Part shown: one piece after another, positions 39,896 to 46,918 of the stretch
Layout of the letters: each line of letters opens with the position of its first letter
How positions within the stretch are numbered: position 1 is the stretch's first letter
IMG/VR virus record: IMGVR_UViG_3300045256_000653
Location: 14,356 to 78,355 of that record
DNA from: a virus
Direction: 5' to 3' (one strand)
DNA: 64,000 nt
Translations under genes and position numbers: made by a program
The notes under the pieces: model-generated
What the model was told of the DNA's origin: nothing
The model's database searches: none
What the model saw: the letters and a program-made list of their open reading frames with translations, nothing else

Positions 39896-40384
39896 TCACT
39901 CCGCCTCTCGGAAAGTTCGGAACAGCCGGTCCCAGCCGAAGAAGAGGATGCCGAAGTTGCGGTTCGTGCGCTTGTGATGCACGAAGTGCAAATCCCGCAG
40001 CGGCGAGAAGATCTTCCAGCGTGCCCAGACCGACTTCTTCACGTGGAAGCCTGTGTGGAGCGAATCGTGCAGGATGCCGAGGGCCAACGTTTCGAGCGCG
40101 GCGCCGCCGATGACGTAGACGTCAGTGCCCAACGCGTAGAGGACGGCGGCGTAGAGAAAGAAGGCGAGGGTGACCGCCGGCGTGAAGATCAGCGTCGAAT
40201 CTGCGGTGCCGGATGTGCGATAGACGCCCGAGACGAGATCGTCGGGCGGGTACTGGAAGATGTGGTGGTTCATGTGGGCGCGGTAAAGCGGCCCGGACCA
40301 TCGCTGGTGGAGCACCCAGTGAACGAACCAGCCGATGAGGCTTCCGTACACGAAGGTGATGGCCGCCGCGACTACTGCGCCCAT
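39896..40384 (-). CDS. Fatty acid hydroxylase/sterol desaturase family membrane protein
   Basis: HWVLH, HMNHH, HTGFH, HFVHH histidine boxes; NFG..WDRLFRT. Confidence 0.85.
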   Translation of the reverse strand: MGAVVAAAITFVYGSLIGWFVHWVLHQRWSGPLYRAHMNHHIFQYPPDDLVSGVYRTSGTADSTLIFTPAVTLAFFLYAAVLYALGTDVYVIGGAALETLALGILHDSLHTGFHVKKSVWARWKIFSPLRDLHFVHHKRTNRNFGILFFGWDRLFRTFREAE

Positions 40385-40417
40385 ACCCAAGAAGACTCAG
40401 AACAGGTTTAACAATGC

Positions 40418-40492
40418 GGGCCCGTAGCTCAGTGGCAGAGCACCGTCTTCACACGGCGGGTGTCGGAGGTTCGATTCCTCTCGGGCCTACCA
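40418..40492 (+). tRNA. tRNA-Val(CAC)
   Basis: Cloverleaf, CCA. Confidence 0.92.
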
Positions 40493-40500
40493 AACATCCC

Positions 40501-40574
40501 GGGCTGATAGCTCAATGGCAGAGTGCCGGTATTACACGCCGGAAGTTGCCGGTTCAAGTCCGGCTCGGCCCACC
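40501..40574 (+). tRNA. tRNA-Val(TAC)
   Basis: Cloverleaf. Confidence 0.9.
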
Positions 40575-40596
40575 CCGTTCGTCACCAAGTTTCCGA

Positions 40597-40668
40597 TGGC
40601 CCGTAGCTCAGTGGTAGAGCGCTTCCTTGACACGGAAGAGATCGGAGGTTCGATTCCTCTCGGGCCAA
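40597..40668 (+). tRNA. tRNA-Val(GAC)
   Basis: Cloverleaf. Confidence 0.92.
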
Positions 40669-40695
40669 CTGCACTTCACTTATTTCAAGAGATAC

Positions 40696-40770
40696 AGGCA
40701 CGTAGCTCAACCTGGTTAGAGCACCATCCTGATAAGGTGGGGGTTGGAGGTTCAAATCCTCTCGTGCCTA
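40696..40770 (+). tRNA. tRNA-Ile(GAT)
   Basis: Cloverleaf. Confidence 0.92.
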
Positions 40771-40772
40771 CT

Positions 40773-40934
40773 GATCGCGCCCAGCAACCCGTGAAGCACA
40801 CAAGCATCCCGCAAGGGATATGCAGGTTCGAATCCTGCTCCCCTCACTTCTACGAGGGGATGGCGGAATTGGAAGACGCACTGGTATAAGGGACCAGCCG
40901 AAAGGCAGACTGCTACACACCCTCGGGCGCGATC
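40773..40934 (+). ncRNA. Circularly permuted tRNA-Leu-like ncRNA (Y-RNA-like)
   Basis: Outer stem gatcgcgccc/gggcgcgatc; T arm (40822-40838) and acceptor 3' strand precede acceptor 5' strand, D arm and anticodon arm. Confidence 0.8.
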
Positions 40935-40964
40935 TATTTTTCCTTTGAACGGACAAGGTAGGTG

Positions 40965-41309
40965 ATGGACTCCCTCGCCAGCCGCGTCGTTCAACGTTAC
41001 ATGACGGCCGCCGACCCCGGCGCCATCCGGATCAAAGAGATTCGGCCGGGAAAGACGGACAAGTCCTACATGGTGACCGTCTACGTTGAAGGCGACTGGG
41101 ACGAGCCGAAGGGCTACGAAGCCAAGCATGCCTTGGCCAAGGCCATCGCGGCGAAGGTCCTCGCCGACTCGCACTTCAAGTCGAAGATGAACGAGTTCAA
41201 GTCGAAGAAGCTGCCGTTTCCCATCCCCAAGAGCCCAAGCGACTTCACCGACTGGGACGTGTGGGCGGGCGAAGCGCAGCTTTCGTACGCCGTCGAAATC
41301 GACGACTAA
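40965..41309 (+). CDS. Hypothetical protein with RVVQRY N-terminal motif
   Basis: 114 aa. Confidence 0.7.
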   Translation: MDSLASRVVQRYMTAADPGAIRIKEIRPGKTDKSYMVTVYVEGDWDEPKGYEAKHALAKAIAAKVLADSHFKSKMNEFKSKKLPFPIPKSPSDFTDWDVWAGEAQLSYAVEIDD

Positions 41310-41557
41310 TCGCCGAGGGATGCAAGGTCCAGGGCTCCGGAAGGTCCCTGGATTTGGCCGTTCGAGATCGGCCAGTTCTTCTGCAATGCGAGGCGCTCGA
41401 CCTCTCGTCCTCGGACGAAGGCATCGGCGATGGCCTCGCTCATGCTCTTCGAGAGCCCGGTCGCATCGCGGATCACCTTGGTCATGCGTTCGACCTTGTG
41501 CTCTTTGGTCTCTTTCGGGACGTATTTGAACGCGACCCGCTTGGCGAGAGGATCCAT
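41306..41557 (-). CDS. Hypothetical protein with RVAFKY N-terminal motif
   Basis: MDPLAKRVAFKY..., 83 aa. Confidence 0.65.
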   Translation of the reverse strand: MDPLAKRVAFKYVPKETKEHKVERMTKVIRDATGLSKSMSEAIADAFVRGREVERLALQKNWPISNGQIQGPSGALDLASLGD

Positions 41558-41587
41558 CAAGCGGTGTATCTGAATAGGTAGAAATTC

Positions 41588-41661
41588 CGGGGTGTCGCAT
41601 AGTGGCAATTGCACGTGCTTTGGGTGCACGTATTACGCGGGTTCGAGTCCCGCCACCCCGA
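41588..41661 (+). tRNA. tRNA-Pro(TGG)
   Basis: Cloverleaf. Confidence 0.9.
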
Positions 41662-41779
41662 CCGGGCTGCTGTTCCGCAGCCCAACACACTTCCCACCTC
41701 GACTCTCTTCGGGGAGTCCGCACAGGGCGGTGTATTCACTTAATTCGGCGACGTGCGAAGCCGAGATCGGATCGGAACA

Positions 41780-43657
41780 ATGGCAAACGAGAATCTTGGA
41801 CCCGCCGAGCGGATCATCAACTCTCTGCTCGCGTACACGGACCACATGGTCCACAACCGCCCGGGCGTGGTCATCCCGGATCGCCGCTTCAACACCGGCG
41901 TGCGCTGGCAATTCGTCACGCACAAGGAGGAAGGCGGCCAAAAGGTCGTCTACGCCCTCACGAAGGTGGGCAAGAAGACGACGAGGACCCGCCTTGGTGT
42001 GATGCAGCCGGATCGTAGCGTCGTCGAGAACGGCGCGAAGATCGGCGATTACCGCCCGGCCGGATACAACCGCGAGGCGGCTGCCTGGATGTACCGACAG
42101 GTCGCCGAGGTGTGGAAGCTCGACAACGAGTTCGCGGCCCGCTGGGCCTCGTACGCGTTCAAGAACGACAAGAACCGCGACCTCAAGGTCATTCTCTGCG
42201 CGTTCATGCTCGTTCAGAGCCGCCAAGGTGATCCGGTCAAGGGCGCCGATGGCAAGGTCGAATTCTTCGACGACGACTTCCGTGAGGTCGGTGAGGCGAT
42301 GATCCTCAGCGACGAGAAGGGTGTCGAGCACTTCGACGCCAAGCTCCTCATCCGGGTGCGCGAGATCCTCTCGCTTCCGGAGATCGCGACCATCAACCGG
42401 GAACTCGGCTTCGGGCGCTCGACGCGCAAGGCGCCGCTCGGTCGTTGGGAGAAGGCGGTCACGCGGTGGCTCCAATACCGGGAGCGCAACCCGAAGATGC
42501 TCGAAGGTCTCGTCAAGGCGGGCCTTCGGAACAAGGTCGTGTCGCTCGCTCAGCAGGTCGGCTACAAGCCGGACTCGCCGAACTTCTACCGGATCCTCCG
42601 GTGGGAGCAAAACCAGGCGAAGGACGGTCACCGCCAGCTCGCGATCGGCGAGGCAGTCGCTGCCGGGGAAACCTGGGAGGGCCTCACCGAGGAGCAGGTC
42701 TGCCAGCGCATCATGAAGGACAAGCCGAAGTGGAACCGTCTCGCGGTCATGCTCCCCAAGAGCACCGGGTTGACGAGGGCCATCATGGCAGCGGCGATCG
42801 AGGCGGGTTCCGTCTCGAACAAGGAACTCATCATCCTTTCGCCGACGCTCGAAGAGCTTGGCCTTCTCCAAGTTCAGAACATCCGAGAGCGTTGGGAGCG
42901 TGCGCAGCGTGAGGCGGAAGACACTCGCGCGGCCAACGTCGCTCAACGCATGAAGTCGAAGGAGGCGCAAGAGAAGCTCCAAGAGGCAGCCGACGTCGCG
43001 GTCCAAAAGGCCGTGGCCGAGGTCGTCAAGGGGATGCTCGTCTACGTCTGCATCGACATCTCGGGATCGATGACGAACTCGATTCCGACCGCGAAGCAGT
43101 ACATCGCGCAGTTCCTCCAGGGTTTCCCCCCGGAGCAGCTCGTCGTGTGCGTCTTCAACACGGTCGGACGCATCGTCACCATCAAGAGCCCGTCGAAGGC
43201 GGGCGTGGAGAATGCGTTCGCCGGCATTCAGGCGGGTGGTGGCACCGATCACGGATCGGCCATTCGCACGATTGCCAAGCACCGCATGCCCACGGCGGAC
43301 GAGGATGTCGTGATGATCTTCATCGGTGACGGTGGAGAGATCAAGACGTTCGACTCCTCTCTGGCGGTCGATCACATCAAGCCGATGGCCTTCGGGTTCC
43401 TCCAGCTTCCTGGAGACAACTCGGGGTGCATCACCAACACGGCGGCTCGGCTGGGTATCCCGTGCTTCAACATCGACGAGGGAATCTTCGCGGACCCGTA
43501 TGCGATTCCGCGTACGCTCCGTGCCCTCATCGCTGCAACCCCGGTGGGCCAAGCTCCCCGGACGCAGGCAGCTCCGCGCGTGTCTCTCGTGGACACGATT
43601 CAAAAGACGGCGCTACTCAAGAAGCCGGCATGGGCAACCGTGGTCGCAACAGCGTAA
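41780..43657 (+). CDS. Ro60/Rsr-like TROVE-domain protein with C-terminal vWA domain
   Basis: Helical N-terminal part with ETWE motif; VCIDISGSM MIDAS, GGGTDHG, IFIGDG; flanked by tRNA-like ncRNAs. Confidence 0.7.
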   Translation: MANENLGPAERIINSLLAYTDHMVHNRPGVVIPDRRFNTGVRWQFVTHKEEGGQKVVYALTKVGKKTTRTRLGVMQPDRSVVENGAKIGDYRPAGYNREAAAWMYRQVAEVWKLDNEFAARWASYAFKNDKNRDLKVILCAFMLVQSRQGDPVKGADGKVEFFDDDFREVGEAMILSDEKGVEHFDAKLLIRVREILSLPEIATINRELGFGRSTRKAPLGRWEKAVTRWLQYRERNPKMLEGLVKAGLRNKVVSLAQQVGYKPDSPNFYRILRWEQNQAKDGHRQLAIGEAVAAGETWEGLTEEQVCQRIMKDKPKWNRLAVMLPKSTGLTRAIMAAAIEAGSVSNKELIILSPTLEELGLLQVQNIRERWERAQREAEDTRAANVAQRMKSKEAQEKLQEAADVAVQKAVAEVVKGMLVYVCIDISGSMTNSIPTAKQYIAQFLQGFPPEQLVVCVFNTVGRIVTIKSPSKAGVENAFAGIQAGGGTDHGSAIRTIAKHRMPTADEDVVMIFIGDGGEIKTFDSSLAVDHIKPMAFGFLQLPGDNSGCITNTAARLGIPCFNIDEGIFADPYAIPRTLRALIAATPVGQAPRTQAAPRVSLVDTIQKTALLKKPAWATVVATA

Positions 43658-43669
43658 GGAGCAAATCAG

Positions 43670-44641
43670 ATGGGATGGAGGGACCTACTTCAAACAGGCG
43701 ACGAGACCCTCGTCTCGCCGTGGGTTGGAGGCAGGTCCCTTCGTTCCGGTCCTCGCACCTGGACGATCGACGGCCGACTCCCTCGGGAGATGGGCTGGTA
43801 CTCGTTCAAGCTCAACGGACGCCGGGCCACACTAAATGGTTCGGCCGATCCGGCGAGCGAGGGTTTCAGAGACGTGGTGCGGGGTTACCTGGTCGGCGAC
43901 CGGCTCGTTCCGGACGGCGCTCGGGTCAACCCCGATCCCACCAAGATCGCAGAGGCGACGGAGACCGTTCTCCTCGTTGACCGTGGGCTCGATCGATTCG
44001 TGCGGATTGCGGCGGGACGCCTCTTTGATGAGGGCCCGCTCATCTTCATGAACCAGGAGATGCCCGTTGGCCCCGAGGATGCGGTCAGCAACGCCTACCT
44101 TCGCCGGCTTCCTTCAGTGAGTGACATCGCCGGAGTGACCCCGGCCCTCGAAGCCGCCTTCCGCATGGAAGTGTGGCAGCGAGAAGAAGCCGAACGTCGG
44201 CGCCTCGAATTGGAGCGCCAGCGTCGGGAAGAAGAGGAACGCAGGCAGCGTGAGGAACGGCGCGAGCAGATGGCGCGCCAGCTCGGAACCGGTACCGGAC
44301 GGCGGGAGATGGCCCTCGTGGACTTCGCCGAAGCCGCTCGTGCTGCGCTCCGGGTTGGAGGTGCCGAGTATCTCGACCACCGGGCATCGTACCGGCCGGG
44401 CGAGATGGTCGTCACCTTCCGGATGCTCAACCGAGCCTTCATGTGCACGTGCGACGAGAAGACGCTTCGCATCATCGATGCTGGCGTTTGCCTCGGGCAC
44501 GGGGACGAGAGAGGGGACACGCGGTTCACTCTCGAATCCTTGCCGGCGGTGATCAACGAAGCTCACCGCACGCATCGATTGGTCGTTCTTCGTCACGTCG
44601 GCGATCAGGACGAACCTGATTGGAGGAACGATGACGATTGA
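43670..44641 (+). CDS. Hypothetical protein, candidate E2-like conjugating component
   Basis: Coiled coil then IIDAGVCL (resembles the G-x-CL catalytic Cys context of E2s); operon context. Confidence 0.45.
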   Translation: MGWRDLLQTGDETLVSPWVGGRSLRSGPRTWTIDGRLPREMGWYSFKLNGRRATLNGSADPASEGFRDVVRGYLVGDRLVPDGARVNPDPTKIAEATETVLLVDRGLDRFVRIAAGRLFDEGPLIFMNQEMPVGPEDAVSNAYLRRLPSVSDIAGVTPALEAAFRMEVWQREEAERRRLELERQRREEEERRQREERREQMARQLGTGTGRREMALVDFAEAARAALRVGGAEYLDHRASYRPGEMVVTFRMLNRAFMCTCDEKTLRIIDAGVCLGHGDERGDTRFTLESLPAVINEAHRTHRLVVLRHVGDQDEPDWRNDDD

Positions 44642-45038
44642 AGCTGGAGTTGTTGTGGGGCGCGACGGCGAGGAGGCTGTCTACTGGCATCTTCCTCCCA
44701 ACAGGAACGTCGTCGCGCTCCCCGACAGCCGAGATCTTTGGGACGTCTTCTGGGAGAACAGGGATCGCATCTCTGGGTTCGCGCACAGCCATCCCGGGCT
44801 CGGCGTTCCCGGCCCCTCCTGGGAAGACCTCACGACATTCGCCGCCGTCGAAGGCGGTCTGGGTCGTCGCCTCAAGTGGTGGATCACGAGCATGAATGCC
44901 GTCTCGGTCCTCACGTGGAAGGGCCCGGGCAAGTACGACTACGAGCTGACCGTGCTCGACAAGGAACCGTCATGGATTCCGGAGCTACGGCGTCTCTCGC
45001 AGAACGAATCAACACCAAACGAGGAGCAGATACGATGA
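44631..45038 (+). CDS. JAB/MPN+ (JAMM) metalloprotease
   Basis: N-terminal E; HSHP...PSWED JAMM motif. Confidence 0.88.
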   Translation: MTIEAGVVVGRDGEEAVYWHLPPNRNVVALPDSRDLWDVFWENRDRISGFAHSHPGLGVPGPSWEDLTTFAAVEGGLGRRLKWWITSMNAVSVLTWKGPGKYDYELTVLDKEPSWIPELRRLSQNESTPNEEQIR

Positions 45039-45310
45039 CGATTCAGGAAAACGAGGCCCAGGTGAACATCACCTGGAACGGAACGAACTTCGAGCTTCCG
45101 GACCCGGTTCTCTTCGAGGCCGCAGACGGAGACCTCAAGCAGTGGGCGGCGGAAGCGATTCGCACGGGCTCGATCCCGGGCTTCGCGGCCGATCCGGCCG
45201 TGGACCTCCGGAATCACATCGTGGACCGCTTCCCGGCGCCGGCTCAGGCCGCGCCCGGCCAGCGTACCCACAACCTCATCCAGATTCGCCCGAAGACGGC
45301 ATTCGGATGA
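45035..45310 (+). CDS. Putative ubiquitin-like protein (91 aa)
   Basis: Between JAB and E1, ATGA-coupled on both sides; beta-grasp-like pattern; ends RPKTAFG. Confidence 0.6.
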   Translation: MTIQENEAQVNITWNGTNFELPDPVLFEAADGDLKQWAAEAIRTGSIPGFAADPAVDLRNHIVDRFPAPAQAAPGQRTHNLIQIRPKTAFG

Positions 45311-45882
45311 AGACCGTGGTCATCGTCGGAGTCGGGGCGCTGGGTTCACACCTCGTGCCCTTGCTCCGGAACGTGGACGCCTCCGTCAAGGTGATCGACT
45401 TCGATCGCGTCGAGGCGAAGAACGTCCTCAGCCAGTTTCACGGCAAGCCGAATGTCGGGAAGCCCAAGGTGCTCTCTCTTCAGAGCACGATGAACTTCCT
45501 CTTCGGCAAGAAGATCGAGACCGTTCCCCACAAGCTCGTGGAGAACAACGCCACCGAGCTTCTCGGCAAGGCTGATCTCGTCATCGACTGCCTCGACAAC
45601 GGGGCAGCTCGCAGGATCGTCCAGGGCTTCGTTCGCAAGAACAACACCCCCTGTTTGCATGGGGCTGTCGATGCGAACGGCAGCTTCGGACGCATCGTTT
45701 GGGACGAGACGTTCGCAATCGACGACGAAGACAAGGCCGGTGCGCCCACCTGCGAAAACGGCGAGCACCTCACGTTCTTGTCGATCGTCGCTTCCTACCT
45801 GGCGCACGCGGCCAGGGAATTTCTCGTGAAGAATCGCAAGCTCGGGTATCAGGTGAGCCCGGGTGGGACTATTCTAACGTGA
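45307..45882 (+). CDS. ThiF/E1-like adenylyltransferase
   Basis: VGVGALGS, IDFDRVEAKN..Q, KPKV, DCLDN..AR; APTCE candidate catalytic Cys. Confidence 0.9.
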   Translation: MKTVVIVGVGALGSHLVPLLRNVDASVKVIDFDRVEAKNVLSQFHGKPNVGKPKVLSLQSTMNFLFGKKIETVPHKLVENNATELLGKADLVIDCLDNGAARRIVQGFVRKNNTPCLHGAVDANGSFGRIVWDETFAIDDEDKAGAPTCENGEHLTFLSIVASYLAHAAREFLVKNRKLGYQVSPGGTILT

Positions 45883-45943
45883 CCGCGCTTTTTTCTTAGC
45901 ACCACGACCGGCGTCGGTGTAAACCAACGCCGGAAGTAACTCT

Positions 45944-46084
45944 GAGGGATATTGGCCGATGGCAGGCCGCGTGACGGTAACTCACGTGCATACGCACAAT
46001 CAGGATTGCACTCTCGGACCTCGCAAGGGGCCCAGCTCCTCGTAGTCCTTACAAGCTTTCTAGGTTCGAATCCTAGGTCCCTCA
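45944..46084 (+). ncRNA. tRNA-like ncRNA with conserved module in the variable loop (GTA at anticodon position)
   Basis: gagggat/gtccctc acceptor; ~75-nt insert; ctaggttcgaatcctag T arm. Confidence 0.78.
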
Positions 46085-46087
46085 CTA

Positions 46088-46255
46088 CTTCGCGCCCAGC
46101 AAAACCCGAAAGACCTTACAAGCAAAGTATGCAGGTTCGAATCCTGCTGAGCCCACCAACGGAGGGTCAAACCTCCGGGGCCCATCGTCTAACGGATAGG
46201 ACACTCGTTATTCAAACGAGCAATCGCAAACAGGTTTCTCAACTCGGGCGCGAAG
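46088..46255 (+). ncRNA. Circularly permuted tRNA-Glu-like ncRNA (Y-RNA-like)
   Basis: cttcgcgccc/gggcgcgaag outer stem; T arm, tgagccc-ACCA, linker hairpin, gggccca, Glu-type D arm, TTC loop. Confidence 0.82.
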
Positions 46256-46307
46256 GAATTTTTTTCTGTCAGACCCATCTCGGGTCGTCGTCTCTGGAAA
46301 CATCAAT

Positions 46308-46440
46308 GCCGATCAAGGGCCGTGGGGCCCACCTCTTTGTTAAAGAGCAACAAATCCTGCATTCACCCCTCGGACCTCGAAAGTGGTCCAGCCCCAACGA
46401 GTGCATACAAGCTTGCCAGGTTCGACTCCTGGGATCGGCG
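46308..46440 (+). ncRNA. tRNA-like ncRNA with module insert (GTT at anticodon position)
   Basis: gccgatc/gatcggc acceptor; insert; ccaggttcgactcctgg. Confidence 0.8.
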
Positions 46441-46470
46441 CTGAGGCACCCAGCCTCCCGTAGTGCTCAC

Positions 46471-46546
46471 ACGCGAATAGCTCACTCTGGTAGAGCATCT
46501 GTTTCGAACACAGAAGGTCACGGGTTCAAATCCCGTTTCGTAACCA
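46471..46546 (+). tRNA. Atypical tRNA (CGA loop, short variable region, weak acceptor stem)
   Basis: tctgt-ttCGAac-acaga; only 5 acceptor pairs. Confidence 0.6.
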
Positions 46547-46580
46547 ACCAGCATTACAATCTCGGGTGTCTCTAATTTTT

Positions 46581-46708
46581 GCGGGTCAGGGCCGTGGGGC
46601 CCACTTTCCTCTCCAAGGAACAAACCAGCATGCGCCCTCGGGCCTCGAAAGGGGCTCAGCTCTCAAGCGTGCTCACAAGCTCGTCAGGTTCGACTCCTGA
46701 GACCCGCT
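46581..46708 (+). ncRNA. tRNA-like ncRNA with module insert (TCC at anticodon position)
   Basis: gcgggtc/gacccgc acceptor; insert; tcaggttcgactcctga. Confidence 0.8.
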
Positions 46709-46771: not shown

Positions 46772-46918
46772 GGGGATGTTACAGAGGGATGGACCCTCGC
46801 CTGCCCACGAAGCAGGAGCGAAAGCTCAACCCAGGATCAAACCTCGGATCTCTTCACCGGGATCCAGCCCCCTCTCGGTCCTTACAAGCCCTCGGTTCGA
46901 ATCCGAGACATCCCCCCA
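46772..46918 (+). ncRNA. tRNA-like ncRNA with module insert (ACG at anticodon position)
   Basis: ggggatgt/acatcccc acceptor; insert; ctcggttcgaatccgag. Confidence 0.8.

What the first reader, a model, noticed from the sequence alone, without database searches (positions are those of the whole stretch)
40773..40934. Second permuted RNA (tRNA-Leu-derived) upstream of the TROVE gene
Seen: gatcgcgcccagc..gtgaagca-cacaagc, T arm, tcccctc-a-cttctac-gagggga, Leu-type D arm tggcggaattggaagacgc, anticodon arm, variable arm, tgctacac-acc-ctcgggcgcgatc. Same module and permutation as 46088 but on a different tRNA body, about 5 kb away, directly after tRNA-Ile. Implies independent module-tRNA fusions. 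Standard tRNA finders would probably miss it.
Basis: seen in the sequence. Interest (0 to 1): 0.8.

Follow-up and report, generated by a model that had tools for sequence, protein, structure and literature searches.

The report
Inside-out tRNA-Leu mimic, phage Y-like RNA
This 162-base stretch of a huge phage encodes a small structured RNA built like a leucine tRNA written in rotated order and clamped by a conserved two-helix stem; it belongs to a conserved RNA family that travels with a hidden relative of the RNA-binding ring protein Ro60, so it is most likely a new version of the known "Y RNA" tRNA mimics, not a working tRNA.

Summary
Window 40773-40934 (+) folds into a 10-bp terminal stem, a bulged C, a second 8-bp stem, then variable-arm hairpin, T arm, closed 7-bp acceptor hairpin, Leu-type D arm, anticodon arm and a mini hairpin.

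- tRNA finders and Rfam miss it. Rejoined in silico in normal order, ARAGORN calls a class II tRNA-Leu(AAG).
- A covariance model built only from other phages finds it at 64.8 bits (E about 1e-15).
- On 26 family members, 91.6% of cells pair and 35 of 39 pairs show compensatory changes.
- Two syntenic orthologues keep the Leu-type body, but their anticodon loops are AAUGGAA and AGGAAAA. Only 12 of 25 family members have U33. It is therefore not a decoding tRNA.
- The neighbouring 634-aa gene has no Pfam TROVE match. Its predicted helical domain matches only Ro60 structures well (Z 12.3, 11.2 and 9.4; next best 6.4).
- RNA and gene stay adjacent down to 35-39% protein identity, though linkage is not absolute.

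Best reading: a Y-RNA-like tRNA mimic that docks on the Ro60-like protein through its stem. It is a new variant of the YrlA kind, because the anticodon arm is retained and the stem leaves from the variable region.

Protein binding and transcript ends are untested. This scan has already noted the same family in this genome and, in its own unchecked notes, in 34 or more genomes.

The parts
40773..40782 (+). Stem 1, 5' strand (GAUCGCGCCC); pairs with 40925-40934
   Evidence: All 9 modelled pairs of this helix show compensatory changes in 26 family members.
40783..40790 (+). AG (pairs with C40922 and U40923, leaving C40924 bulged), then the internal-loop 5' side CAACCC. Family consensus here is CC-A-N-C.
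   Evidence: Read; family consensus.
40791..40798 (+). Stem 2, 5' strand (GUGAAGCA); pairs with 40911-40918, with one A.A mismatch
   Evidence: The orthologue L006 has a wholly different sequence here but keeps the pairing.
40799..40805 (+). CACAAGC: the nearly invariant junction motif (ACAaGCA) of the family
   Evidence: The pattern CCAGC..ACAAGC occurs 7 times in the window against 0.76 expected.
40806..40819 (+). Variable-arm-like hairpin AUCCC-GCAA-GGGAU (the V stem-loop, as in YrlA)
   Evidence: Identical in orthologues L006 and L196. A soil-metagenome variant has lost one C and one G of the stem and changed the loop GCAA to GAAA, which is compensatory. ARAGORN accepts it as a class II variable arm.
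40822..40838 (+). T arm GCAGG-UUCGAAU-CCUGC
   Evidence: This helix is 100% paired in the family, and 4 of its 5 pairs covary.
40839..40860 (+). Closed acceptor hairpin: 3' strand UCCCCUC, loop ACUUCUAC (A at the discriminator place, no CCA), 5' strand GAGGGGA
   Evidence: Four of the 7 pairs are changed on both sides in orthologue L006.
40861..40880 (+). U8-G9, a Leu-type D arm with a 3-bp stem (GCG-GAAUUGGAAGA-CGC) and A26
   Evidence: The 10 nearest D arms among 493 phage tRNAs are all tRNA-Leu.
40881..40897 (+). Anticodon arm CUGGU-AUAAGGG-ACCAG (loop reads U33, AAG, G37)
   Evidence: The stem covaries. The loop is not conserved in orthologues, which have AAUGGAA and AGGAAAA.
40898..40910 (+). 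Mini hairpin CC-GAAA-GG (possibly a second variable-arm relic) and linker CAGAC
   Evidence: Identical in L006 and L196. ARAGORN also accepts it as a variable arm. The equivalent family helix is only 63% paired.
40911..40934 (+). Stem 2 3' strand UGCUACAC, then ACC, then the invariant CUC-GG with bulged C40924, then the stem 1 3' strand
   Evidence: CUCG is present in at least 90% of 30 members.
40935..40943 (+). UAUUUUUCC: a U-run directly after stem 1, a possible 3'-end or terminator signal
   Evidence: A run of 4 or more U follows 11 of 33 family members. The simple terminator scan did not call it, because the loop is too long.
41753..43657 (+). Presumed protein partner: a 634-aa Ro60-like protein (N-terminal beta domain, TROVE-like helical repeats, vWA domain)
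   Evidence: By sequence only vWA is found. Foldseek's top full-length hits are TROVE/Ro60. The helical domain alone gives 1yvp Z 12.3, 2nvo Z 11.2 and 9l5y Z 9.4, the top three of 48,161 chains, with the next at 6.4.

Best explanation
This is a non-coding RNA gene of a conserved family from huge phages. I read it as a Y-RNA-like tRNA mimic.

Transcription and ends (inferred): it is transcribed with the upstream tRNA array. Its 5' end would be set by 3' processing of tRNA-Ile, which ends 1 nt before it. Its 3' end would be set by stem 1 plus the U-run.

Fold (shown by covariation): the two ends pair into a bipartite 'handle'. This consists of a 10-bp stem 1, a bulged C next to two further pairs, an internal loop, and an 8-bp stem 2. 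The handle clamps a complete tRNA-Leu-shaped body whose acceptor end is sealed by an 8-nt loop.

Handle function (inferred from conserved gene-RNA neighbourhood): the handle is the docking site for the Ro60-like ring protein encoded 820 nt downstream.

Body function (inferred by analogy with YrlA): the body keeps the D-loop and T-loop elbow nucleotides of a tRNA. It presents a tRNA look-alike to a tRNA-binding factor. Candidates are RNase P or the CCA-adding enzyme, a synthetase, a nuclease that the particle recruits, or a host anti-tRNA defence that it decoys.

The anticodon loop is not used for decoding.

Origin (inferred): it looks like the joint region of a tandem tRNA-Leu dimer captured between the two handle strands.
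For: RNA reality and family:
- MFE z = -4.3.
- The independent model R1 gives 64.8 bits, E about 1e-15.
- On 26 members, 91.6% of cells pair, 35 of 39 pairs have compensatory changes, and the covariation score is 0.709 against 0.135 or less for slid controls.
- Syntenic orthologues L006:4265-4438 and L196:2771-2943 lie about 560 nt upstream of the same gene. Four compensatory acceptor pairs differ and stem 2 is fully replaced but still paired.
- A natural variant carries a compensatory change in the V hairpin.
- All 47 and all 32 model hits lie on the gene's strand.

Not a decoding tRNA:
- Orthologue anticodon loops are AAUGGAA and AGGAAAA on the same Leu-type body.
- U33 occurs in only 12 of 25 family loops.
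- The acceptor end is sealed and has no CCA.

Ro60 link:
- The neighbouring protein's helical domain matches only the three Ro60 representatives well, at Z 12.3, 11.2 and 9.4 against 6.4 for the next chain. The full-length model aligns over about 410 residues to Ro60.
- In five near-complete genomes of 363-619 kb, the strongest hits lie mostly within about 5 kb of that gene.
- Permuted RNAs lie 0.1-1 kb from the gene, on the same strand, in contigs where the protein is only 35-39% identical.

Precedent:
- YrlA Y RNAs are circularly-permuted-tRNA-like and are encoded beside Ro60, in phages too (PMC4201824; 10.1101/312249).
- Phage phiLo Ro60 binds phage-encoded Y-like RNAs (PMC12135203).
Against: - There is no experimental or RNA-seq evidence for the transcript, its ends or protein binding. 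No RNA run was listed.
- The handle lacks YrlA's GNCGAAN0-1G motif in the 5' strand, and Rfam YrlA does not hit it.
- The protein has no detectable TROVE sequence signature in any of 33 members. It also carries an extra N-terminal beta domain.
- Linkage is not absolute. Of nine records found through an RNA motif alone, four fragments have no Ro60-like gene. One of these (G007) is 155 kb with the RNAs in its middle. In G009 and G004 some copies lie 67 kb and more than 300 kb from the gene.
- All these loci are also tRNA islands. Adjacency could therefore partly reflect co-location with tRNA genes.
Confidence: 0.62

Rival explanations
1. tRNA mimic that works without Ro60. The handle is only a structural clamp, or binds some other factor. 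The RNA would act as a decoy or sponge for host enzymes that target tRNA (anticodon nucleases, tRNA-directed toxins) or for tRNA-modifying or processing enzymes. Its position near the Ro60-like gene would only reflect the shared tRNA island.
For: - Every locus examined is a tRNA island.
- Several records carry the RNAs without a Ro60-like gene nearby.
- Extra copies lie 22 kb to more than 300 kb from the gene in G002 and G004.
- The handle shares no known Ro60-binding motif.
Against: - The handle is the most conserved non-tRNA part. It recurs in three topologies in the window, which fits a docking site better than a mere clamp.
- Adjacency and co-orientation with the Ro60-like gene persist at 35-39% protein identity.
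Confidence: 0.2
2. A genuine permuted tRNA gene. The handle would be cut and its ends ligated (for example by RtcB). RNase P and 3' processing plus CCA addition would then open the acceptor loop. The product would be a working tRNA-Leu(AAG), an anticodon missing from the phage's Leu set.
For: - After un-permutation the cloverleaf is complete: 7-bp acceptor, A73, U33 and G37.
- The window has Leu CAG, GAG, TAG, TAA and CAA but no AAG.
- 9 of 33 family members encode NCCA right after the acceptor 3' strand, against about 1/64 expected for CCA at one fixed place, which is my own estimate.
- 4 of 5 related genomes encode RtcB.
- M. smegmatis YrlA is cut by RNase P and CCA-tailed (PMC4201824).
Against: - Orthologues with the same body have non-Leu loops lacking U33, and half of the family lacks U33.
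- This copy has no CCA.
- The handle is not a bulge-helix-bulge motif.
- G002, 94% complete, has 7 model hits at E<=1e-6 but no RtcB.
- The same handle also occurs as a closed hairpin and around intact tRNA bodies, where cutting and ligating would not yield a tRNA.
Confidence: 0.07
3. Decaying relic: a rearranged tRNA-Leu pseudogene, or chance pairing between tRNA-array spacers, without function.
For: tRNA arrays generate many T-arm/D-arm junctions. These give false YrlA-like and low-scoring model hits.
Against: - Strong covariation in all helices.
- Syntenic orthologues with compensatory changes.
- A high score with an independent model.
- Strict strand bias.
Confidence: 0.03

Closest known systems
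YrlA, the tRNA-like Y RNA of bacterial and phage Ro60/Rsr (Rfam RF02553; Chen et al. 2014, PMC4201824; Wang et al. 2018 preprint 10.1101/312249)
   Same: - The order is terminal stem, V stem-loop, T arm, closed acceptor stem-loop, D arm, terminal stem. This is a circularly-permuted-tRNA look with tRNA elbow nucleotides.
- It is encoded beside a Ro60-type gene, also in phages.
- It has a 7-bp acceptor, like M. smegmatis YrlA, which RNase P cleaves.
   Different: - It keeps a complete closed anticodon arm, whereas YrlA lacks the anticodon loop and its anticodon stem runs on into the Ro60 module.
- The handle leaves from the variable region, making a five-way junction.
- The handle has its own conserved elements (CC-ANC, ACAAGC, CUCGG with a bulged C) and no GNCGAA motif in the 5' strand.
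- RF02553 does not detect it.
- The partner protein is not recognisable as TROVE by sequence.
Yrl1/Yrl2 of Thermus phage phiLo with phage Ro60 (PMC12135203; PDB 9KOP, 9L5Y)
   Same: These are phage-encoded small RNAs upstream of a phage Ro60 gene, with a stem-bulge-stem terminal module. The phiLo Ro60 structure is among the best fold matches of the neighbouring protein.
   Different: [quoted passage not shown] Here the body is a whole tRNA-Leu cloverleaf and the motif is absent from that place.
Permuted tRNA genes of Cyanidioschyzon merolae (matured through a circular intermediate; from my own knowledge of Soma et al. 2007, mentioned in PMC3400036)
   Same: The 3' half of a tRNA is encoded upstream of the 5' half, with a short linker between the acceptor strands.
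   Different: Those genes have a bulge-helix-bulge junction cut by the splicing endonuclease and yield decoding tRNAs. Here there is no such motif, the anticodon loops drift among orthologues, and the setting is bacterial and phage.
D. radiodurans Yrn1 (PMC4201824)
   Same: A Y RNA with a T arm that can be modelled with an anticodon-arm-like hairpin.
   Different: [quoted passage not shown]

Membership tests
YrlA (Rfam RF02553) | Scores at or above the family's gathering threshold (69 bits) with the Rfam covariance model | tested here: not met
   There is no RF02553 match over 40773-40934 even at E<=10. The model's weak hits in the region are tRNA-tRNA junctions.
YrlA (Rfam RF02553) | tRNA-like module in the order V stem-loop, T arm, closed acceptor stem-loop, D arm | tested here: met
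   Seen. Covariation supports the T, acceptor and D helices. ARAGORN calls a tRNA after un-permutation.
YrlA (Rfam RF02553) | GNCGAAN0-1G motif near the 5' end, in the Ro60-binding module (PMC4201824) | tested here: not met
   The 5' strand (40773-40805) has no such motif. The only match, GCCGAAAG at 40897-40904, lies in a hairpin 3' of the anticodon arm. The family consensus shows other conserved elements.
YrlA (Rfam RF02553) | No anticodon loop; the anticodon-stem equivalent continues into the Ro60-binding stem (10.1101/312249) | tested here: not met
   A closed 5-bp/7-nt anticodon arm lies at 40881-40897, and its stem covaries.
YrlA (Rfam RF02553) | Encoded next to an Rsr/Ro60 (TROVE) gene | tested here: inconclusive
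   It lies 820 nt upstream of a protein with a Ro60-like predicted fold. Pfam TROVE finds nothing in 33 family members or in six records. Linkage is frequent but not absolute.
YrlA (Rfam RF02553) | Bound by Ro60 in vivo | not testable with these tools
   Needs co-immunoprecipitation or EMSA.
Permuted tRNA gene (C. merolae type) | 3' half encoded upstream of the 5' half of one tRNA | tested here: met
   Rejoining 40854-40897 with 40806-40846 gives ARAGORN tRNA-Leu(AAG).
Permuted tRNA gene (C. merolae type) | Bulge-helix-bulge motif at the junction of leader and trailer | tested here: not met
   The handle is a 10-bp stem, a 1-nt bulge, two pairs, an asymmetric internal loop and an 8-bp stem. 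It has no pair of 3-nt bulges around a 4-bp helix.
Permuted tRNA gene (C. merolae type) | Yields a decoding tRNA: anticodon and U33 conserved among orthologues | tested here: not met
   Orthologue loops are AAUGGAA and AGGAAAA. U33 is present in 12 of 25 family loops.
Permuted tRNA gene (C. merolae type) | Circular RNA intermediate | not testable with these tools
   No RNA run holds the locus.
Canonical tRNA (Rfam RF00005 / ARAGORN) | Detected as a tRNA in native gene order | tested here: not met
   Not reported by ARAGORN or by Rfam at gathering or E<=10 thresholds.
Ro60/TROVE protein (for the neighbouring gene) | Pfam TROVE domain PF05731 by sequence | tested here: not met
   0 of 33 members match at E<=1. 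No match in the own record or in five related genomes, while the control genomes do match. PDB phmmer finds no Ro60.
Ro60/TROVE protein (for the neighbouring gene) | Helical-repeat TROVE fold followed by a vWA domain | tested here: met
   The AF2 models have pLDDT 79 and 83. Full-length Foldseek top hits are TROVE/Ro60. VIA gives Z 13 over about 410 residues. For the helical domain alone, the three Ro60 chains score Z 12.3, 11.2 and 9.4 against 6.4 for the next. The vWA domain is found by Pfam.

The most novel reading that the evidence does not exclude
The sealed acceptor hairpin may be opened in vivo by RNase P at 40853/40854, with the upstream piece trimmed and CCA-tailed, as happens to M. 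smegmatis YrlA. The result would be a two-piece tRNA-Leu look-alike held together by the handle. Because, from my own knowledge, LeuRS does not read the anticodon, this molecule could even be leucylated while riding on the Ro60-like ring. That would be a charged tRNA mimic used as a sensor, decoy or delivery device. Alternatively, handle ligation could make it the first true permuted tRNA gene of a virus of bacteria.
Probability: 0.12. Interest if true: 0.85.

Novelty: new variant of a known kind. Interest (0 to 1): 0.62.

Why it matters
Ro60/Y-RNA particles are known from animals, some bacteria and a few phages. What their tRNA-like module binds is still unknown.

This family would extend the system to a protein clade invisible to Pfam TROVE. 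That clade has more than 1,600 proteins at E<=0.001, in huge phages and in contigs binned with Myxococcota and Verrucomicrobiota. It would also extend the system to RNAs invisible to Rfam and to tRNA finders.

The Leu-type copy is instructive in three ways:
- It keeps every arm of a class II tRNA, including two candidate variable arms. This gives unusually direct support to the idea that such Y RNAs arose from tandem tRNA dimers.
- Its drifting anticodon loop shows which parts are under selection: the elbow, the acceptor and the handle.
- Practically, it warns that tRNA islands of huge phages hold structured RNA genes that current annotation pipelines skip.

Tried and rejected
- Rfam 15 at gathering and at E<=10 gave nothing at the site. 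No ribozyme or intron family appeared, and the YrlA model hit only tRNA junctions.
- Megablast of 40300-46700 against 50,697 phage records gave no match.
- PDB phmmer with the neighbouring protein found no Ro60.
- nhmmer with the single RNA found only the L006 orthologue clearly.
- MAFFT plus RNAalifold on raw sequences recovered only the T and acceptor helices. A hand-set structure and a covariance model were needed.
- The loose DNA pattern (CCAGC..ACAAGC..GGTTCRANTCC) in viral contigs was unspecific. Only 9 of the first 100 of its 116 loci held model-validated RNAs. The last 16 loci were not searched.
- The strict pattern for the Leu-type copy found only L006's record.
- Sequencing runs: no RNA holder was listed. 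Only DNA contigs could be laid, so nothing is known about transcript ends or expression.
- No RtcB and no canonical TROVE were found in the 78-kb record.
- Foldseek with the helical domain alone gave no hit below E 0.001. The Ro60 rows had high probability but weak E-values. The VIA wide search was the informative one.
- The promoter and terminator scan found no promoter-like site near the RNA and did not call its terminal stem plus U-run.
- Pairing between ACAAGC and the 3' linker was looked for by eye and no covariation was seen.

Full report
**Setting.** The window is part of a 78-kb IMG/VR virus record, estimated 17% complete, so a fragment of a huge phage. It carries 51 tRNA genes and a tmRNA, all on the + strand. 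The finding lies 1 nt after tRNA-Ile(GAU) (40696-40771). It is followed by a U-run, a 115-codon ORF, tRNA-Pro(UGG) and a 634-codon gene at 41753-43657.

**Observation.** The two ends form a 10-bp stem (40773-82 with 40925-34). Two more pairs follow (A40783-U40923 and G40784-C40922), leaving C40924 bulged. Then come an internal loop and a second 8-bp stem with one A.A mismatch (40791-98 with 40911-18).

Inside the stems lie, in order:
- the motif CACAAGC
- a 5-bp GCAA hairpin
- a canonical T arm
- a 7-bp acceptor helix closed by the 8-nt loop ACUUCUAC
- U8-G9 and a 3-bp-stem D arm of the tRNA-Leu type
- a 5-bp/7-nt anticodon arm with loop AUAAGGG
- a CC-GAAA-GG mini hairpin

The MFE fold recovers the two terminal stems, both small hairpins, the acceptor helix and most of the anticodon stem. 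It misfolds the T and D arms, which are read from the sequence and are supported by the covariation below. The MFE has z = -4.3, with 0 of 200 shuffles as stable. ARAGORN, Rfam tRNA and Rfam YrlA do not report the element. When I rejoined the pieces in normal tRNA order in a script, ARAGORN called a class II tRNA-Leu(AAG). It did so with either of the two small hairpins serving as the long variable arm. The nearest real tRNAs are tRNA-Leu, at about 68% identity. The ten most similar D arms among 493 tRNAs from related phage loci are all tRNA-Leu.

**Relatives and covariation.** The neighbouring protein has more than 1,600 relatives, many on contigs of 200-660 kb. I fetched 66 viral, 15 metagenome and 37 genome-bin loci around it.

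A simple scanner looked for ends that pair around an internal T loop next to CUCGG. It gave 51 hits, all on the gene's strand.

A covariance model (R1) was built from 12 such RNAs of other phages, with a hand-set structure. It scored the finding at 64.8 bits, E about 1e-15, and the 46088 copy at 91.9 bits. On the 26 best matches:
- 91.6% of cells are standard pairs, against 64% when shuffled.
- 35 of 39 pairs have changes on both sides.
- The covariation score is 0.709, against 0.135 or less for slid partners.
- All nine stem 1 pairs and most stem 2, T, acceptor, D and anticodon-stem pairs covary.

This alignment is fitted to the model, which inflates pairing somewhat. The size of the effect and the slid controls leave little doubt.

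Two orthologues of this particular RNA, L006:4265-4438 and L196:2771-2943, lie in the same synteny: a tRNA array, then the RNA, then tRNA-Pro(UGG), then the gene, with the RNA about 560 nt upstream of the gene. They share the two small hairpins, the T arm and the Leu-type D arm. Four acceptor pairs are changed on both sides, stem 2 has a wholly different but still paired sequence, and one anticodon-stem pair is compensated.

A close variant in a soil metagenome of another study has lost one C and one G of the 40806-19 stem and changed its loop from GCAA to GAAA. This is a compensatory change seen in nature.

**Not a working tRNA.** The three orthologues have the anticodon loops AUAAGGG, AAUGGAA and AGGAAAA on the same body. 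In the family, 25 of 33 members have 7-nt loops. Only 12 of those have U33 and the triplets are diverse, although position 37 is always a purine. This copy has no CCA, and its acceptor end is sealed.

**The neighbouring protein.** By sequence only a vWA domain is found. Pfam TROVE matches none of 33 members, nor the own record, nor five related genomes, while the control genomes do match.
- The AF2 model (pLDDT 79) gives TROVE/Ro60 structures as Foldseek's best full-length hits.
- It gives Z about 13 over about 410 residues to Xenopus and human Ro60.
- The helical part was modelled alone (pLDDT 83) and aligned to 48,161 representative chains. Its top three matches are exactly the three Ro60 representatives: 1yvp Z 12.3, 2nvo Z 11.2 and phage phiLo 9l5y Z 9.4. 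The next chain scores 6.4.

So the gene encodes a very divergent Ro60-like protein with an additional N-terminal beta domain.

**Linkage.** In five near-complete genomes (363-619 kb) the strongest model hits lie mostly within about 5 kb of the Ro60-like gene, with a few 22 kb to more than 300 kb away. In contigs binned as Verrucomicrobiota, Terriglobales or Polyangiaceae the protein is only 35-39% identical. There, permuted RNAs still lie 0.1-1 kb from the gene on the same strand.

Against this, nine records were found through an RNA motif alone. Of these, four were already known to hold the gene, one has a divergent copy 67 kb away, and four fragments have none. One of the four is 155 kb with the RNAs in its middle. 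Most loci checked are also tRNA islands; L238 has none within 6.6 kb. The partnership is therefore well supported but inferred.

**Comparison with what is known.** Chen et al. 2014 (PMC4201824) described YrlA RNAs beside Ro60 in more than 250 bacteria and phages. YrlA has a V stem-loop, T arm, acceptor-like stem-loop and D arm between the strands of a Ro60-binding module that carries GNCGAAN0-1G. M. smegmatis YrlA, with a 7-bp acceptor, is cut by RNase P and CCA-tailed.

[quoted passage not shown] It also states that YrlA lacks the anticodon loop and that its anticodon stem leads to the Ro60 module (10.1101/312249). Phage phiLo Ro60 binds two phage-encoded Y-like RNAs (PMC12135203).

The present RNA works like these but fails several membership features:
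- There is no RF02553 hit.
- There is no GNCGAA motif in the 5' strand.
- It retains a closed anticodon arm.
- Its distinct handle (CC-ANC, ACAAGC, CUCGG) leaves the body from the variable region.

I found no paper describing this family.

**Origin.** The body contains everything expected from the joint of two tandem tRNA-Leu genes. From the first copy come a variable arm, the T arm, the acceptor 3' strand and the discriminator. A spacer follows. From the second copy come the acceptor 5' strand, the D arm, the anticodon arm and a second variable-arm-like hairpin. In 9 of 33 family members the acceptor 3' strand is followed by NCCA. This fits the dimeric-tRNA origin proposed for YrlA.

However, the two window copies share an identical T arm and a nearly identical stem 1 while differing in the other arms. 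Exchange within one family explains that equally well.

**Verdict.** The RNA gene and its family are real (confidence about 0.9). The Y-RNA-like reading, with the Ro60-like protein as partner, is the best explanation (0.62). A Ro60-independent decoy role (0.2) and a true permuted tRNA (0.07) remain open. The concept is known, but the architecture and the protein clade are new: a new variant of a known kind. Earlier notes of this scan describe the same family in this genome and, by its own unchecked count, in 34 or more genomes. I re-derived the points used here independently.

Noticed in passing
window 43670-45882: Directly after the Ro60-like gene come an unassigned 323-aa ORF (43670-44641), a JAB-type peptidase (44631-45038; PF14464, E 4.7e-5) and a ThiF/E1-like enzyme (45142-45882; E 5.8e-24), with overlapping or near-abutting ends. 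Together they look like a ubiquitin-like conjugation operon coupled to the Ro60-like gene.
   Followed up: no
window 45944-46085, 46360-46440, 46640-46700, 46840-46910: The same handle occurs as a closed hairpin (CUCGG-stem-loop-stem-CCAGC...YACAAGC) in front of a T arm. At 45944-46085 it sits in the variable-arm position of a cloverleaf read by eye. That first example has a GUA (Tyr) anticodon triplet, and ARAGORN finds no tRNA-Tyr in the window.
   Followed up: partly
window 46443-46572: A third topology: handle strands (GGCACCC-AGC ... CUC-GGGUGUC) flank an entire tRNA-Ser(CGA)-like body at its acceptor ends. My end-pairing scanner found it.
   Followed up: partly
window 40897-40904: GCCGAAAG fits YrlA's GNCGAAN0-1G motif. 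It lies in the GAAA mini hairpin 3' of the anticodon arm, not in the 5' strand. It is conserved in the two orthologues but not in the family, so it is probably coincidence.
   Followed up: partly
window 41753-43657, residues about 38-101: The Ro60-like protein has an N-terminal beta-strand domain (six strands, pLDDT 80-94) that lies outside every alignment to the Ro60 structures, which begin at model residue 106. Its fold was not searched on its own.
   Followed up: no
loci L205-L230: The Ro60-like gene at 50-57% identity lies on many contigs binned as Myxococcota (Kofleriaceae, Polyangiaceae, Sandaracinaceae). It also lies on a 799-kb scaffold of the isolate Paraliomyxa miuraensis SMH-27-4. 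This is a hint at the host range, at prophages, or at mis-binned phage contigs.
   Followed up: no
L231:4678-4751: A 74-nt 'tRNA-Leu(AAG)' call lies between the Ro60-like gene and two permuted RNAs in a contig binned as Terriglobales. It is too short for a class II tRNA-Leu and may be another mimic.
   Followed up: no
window 40545-40620, 40642-40722: The Rfam YrlA model gives weak false hits across tRNA-tRNA junctions (T arm of one tRNA plus D arm of the next). Chen et al. warned of exactly this artefact.
   Followed up: yes
G001, G003, G004, G005 (records of L006, L163, L166, L130): Four of five related huge-phage genomes encode RtcB RNA ligase, 20-30 kb from the Ro60-like gene in two of them. 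This recalls the bacterial rsr-yrl-rtcBA operon. G002 has none.
   Followed up: partly
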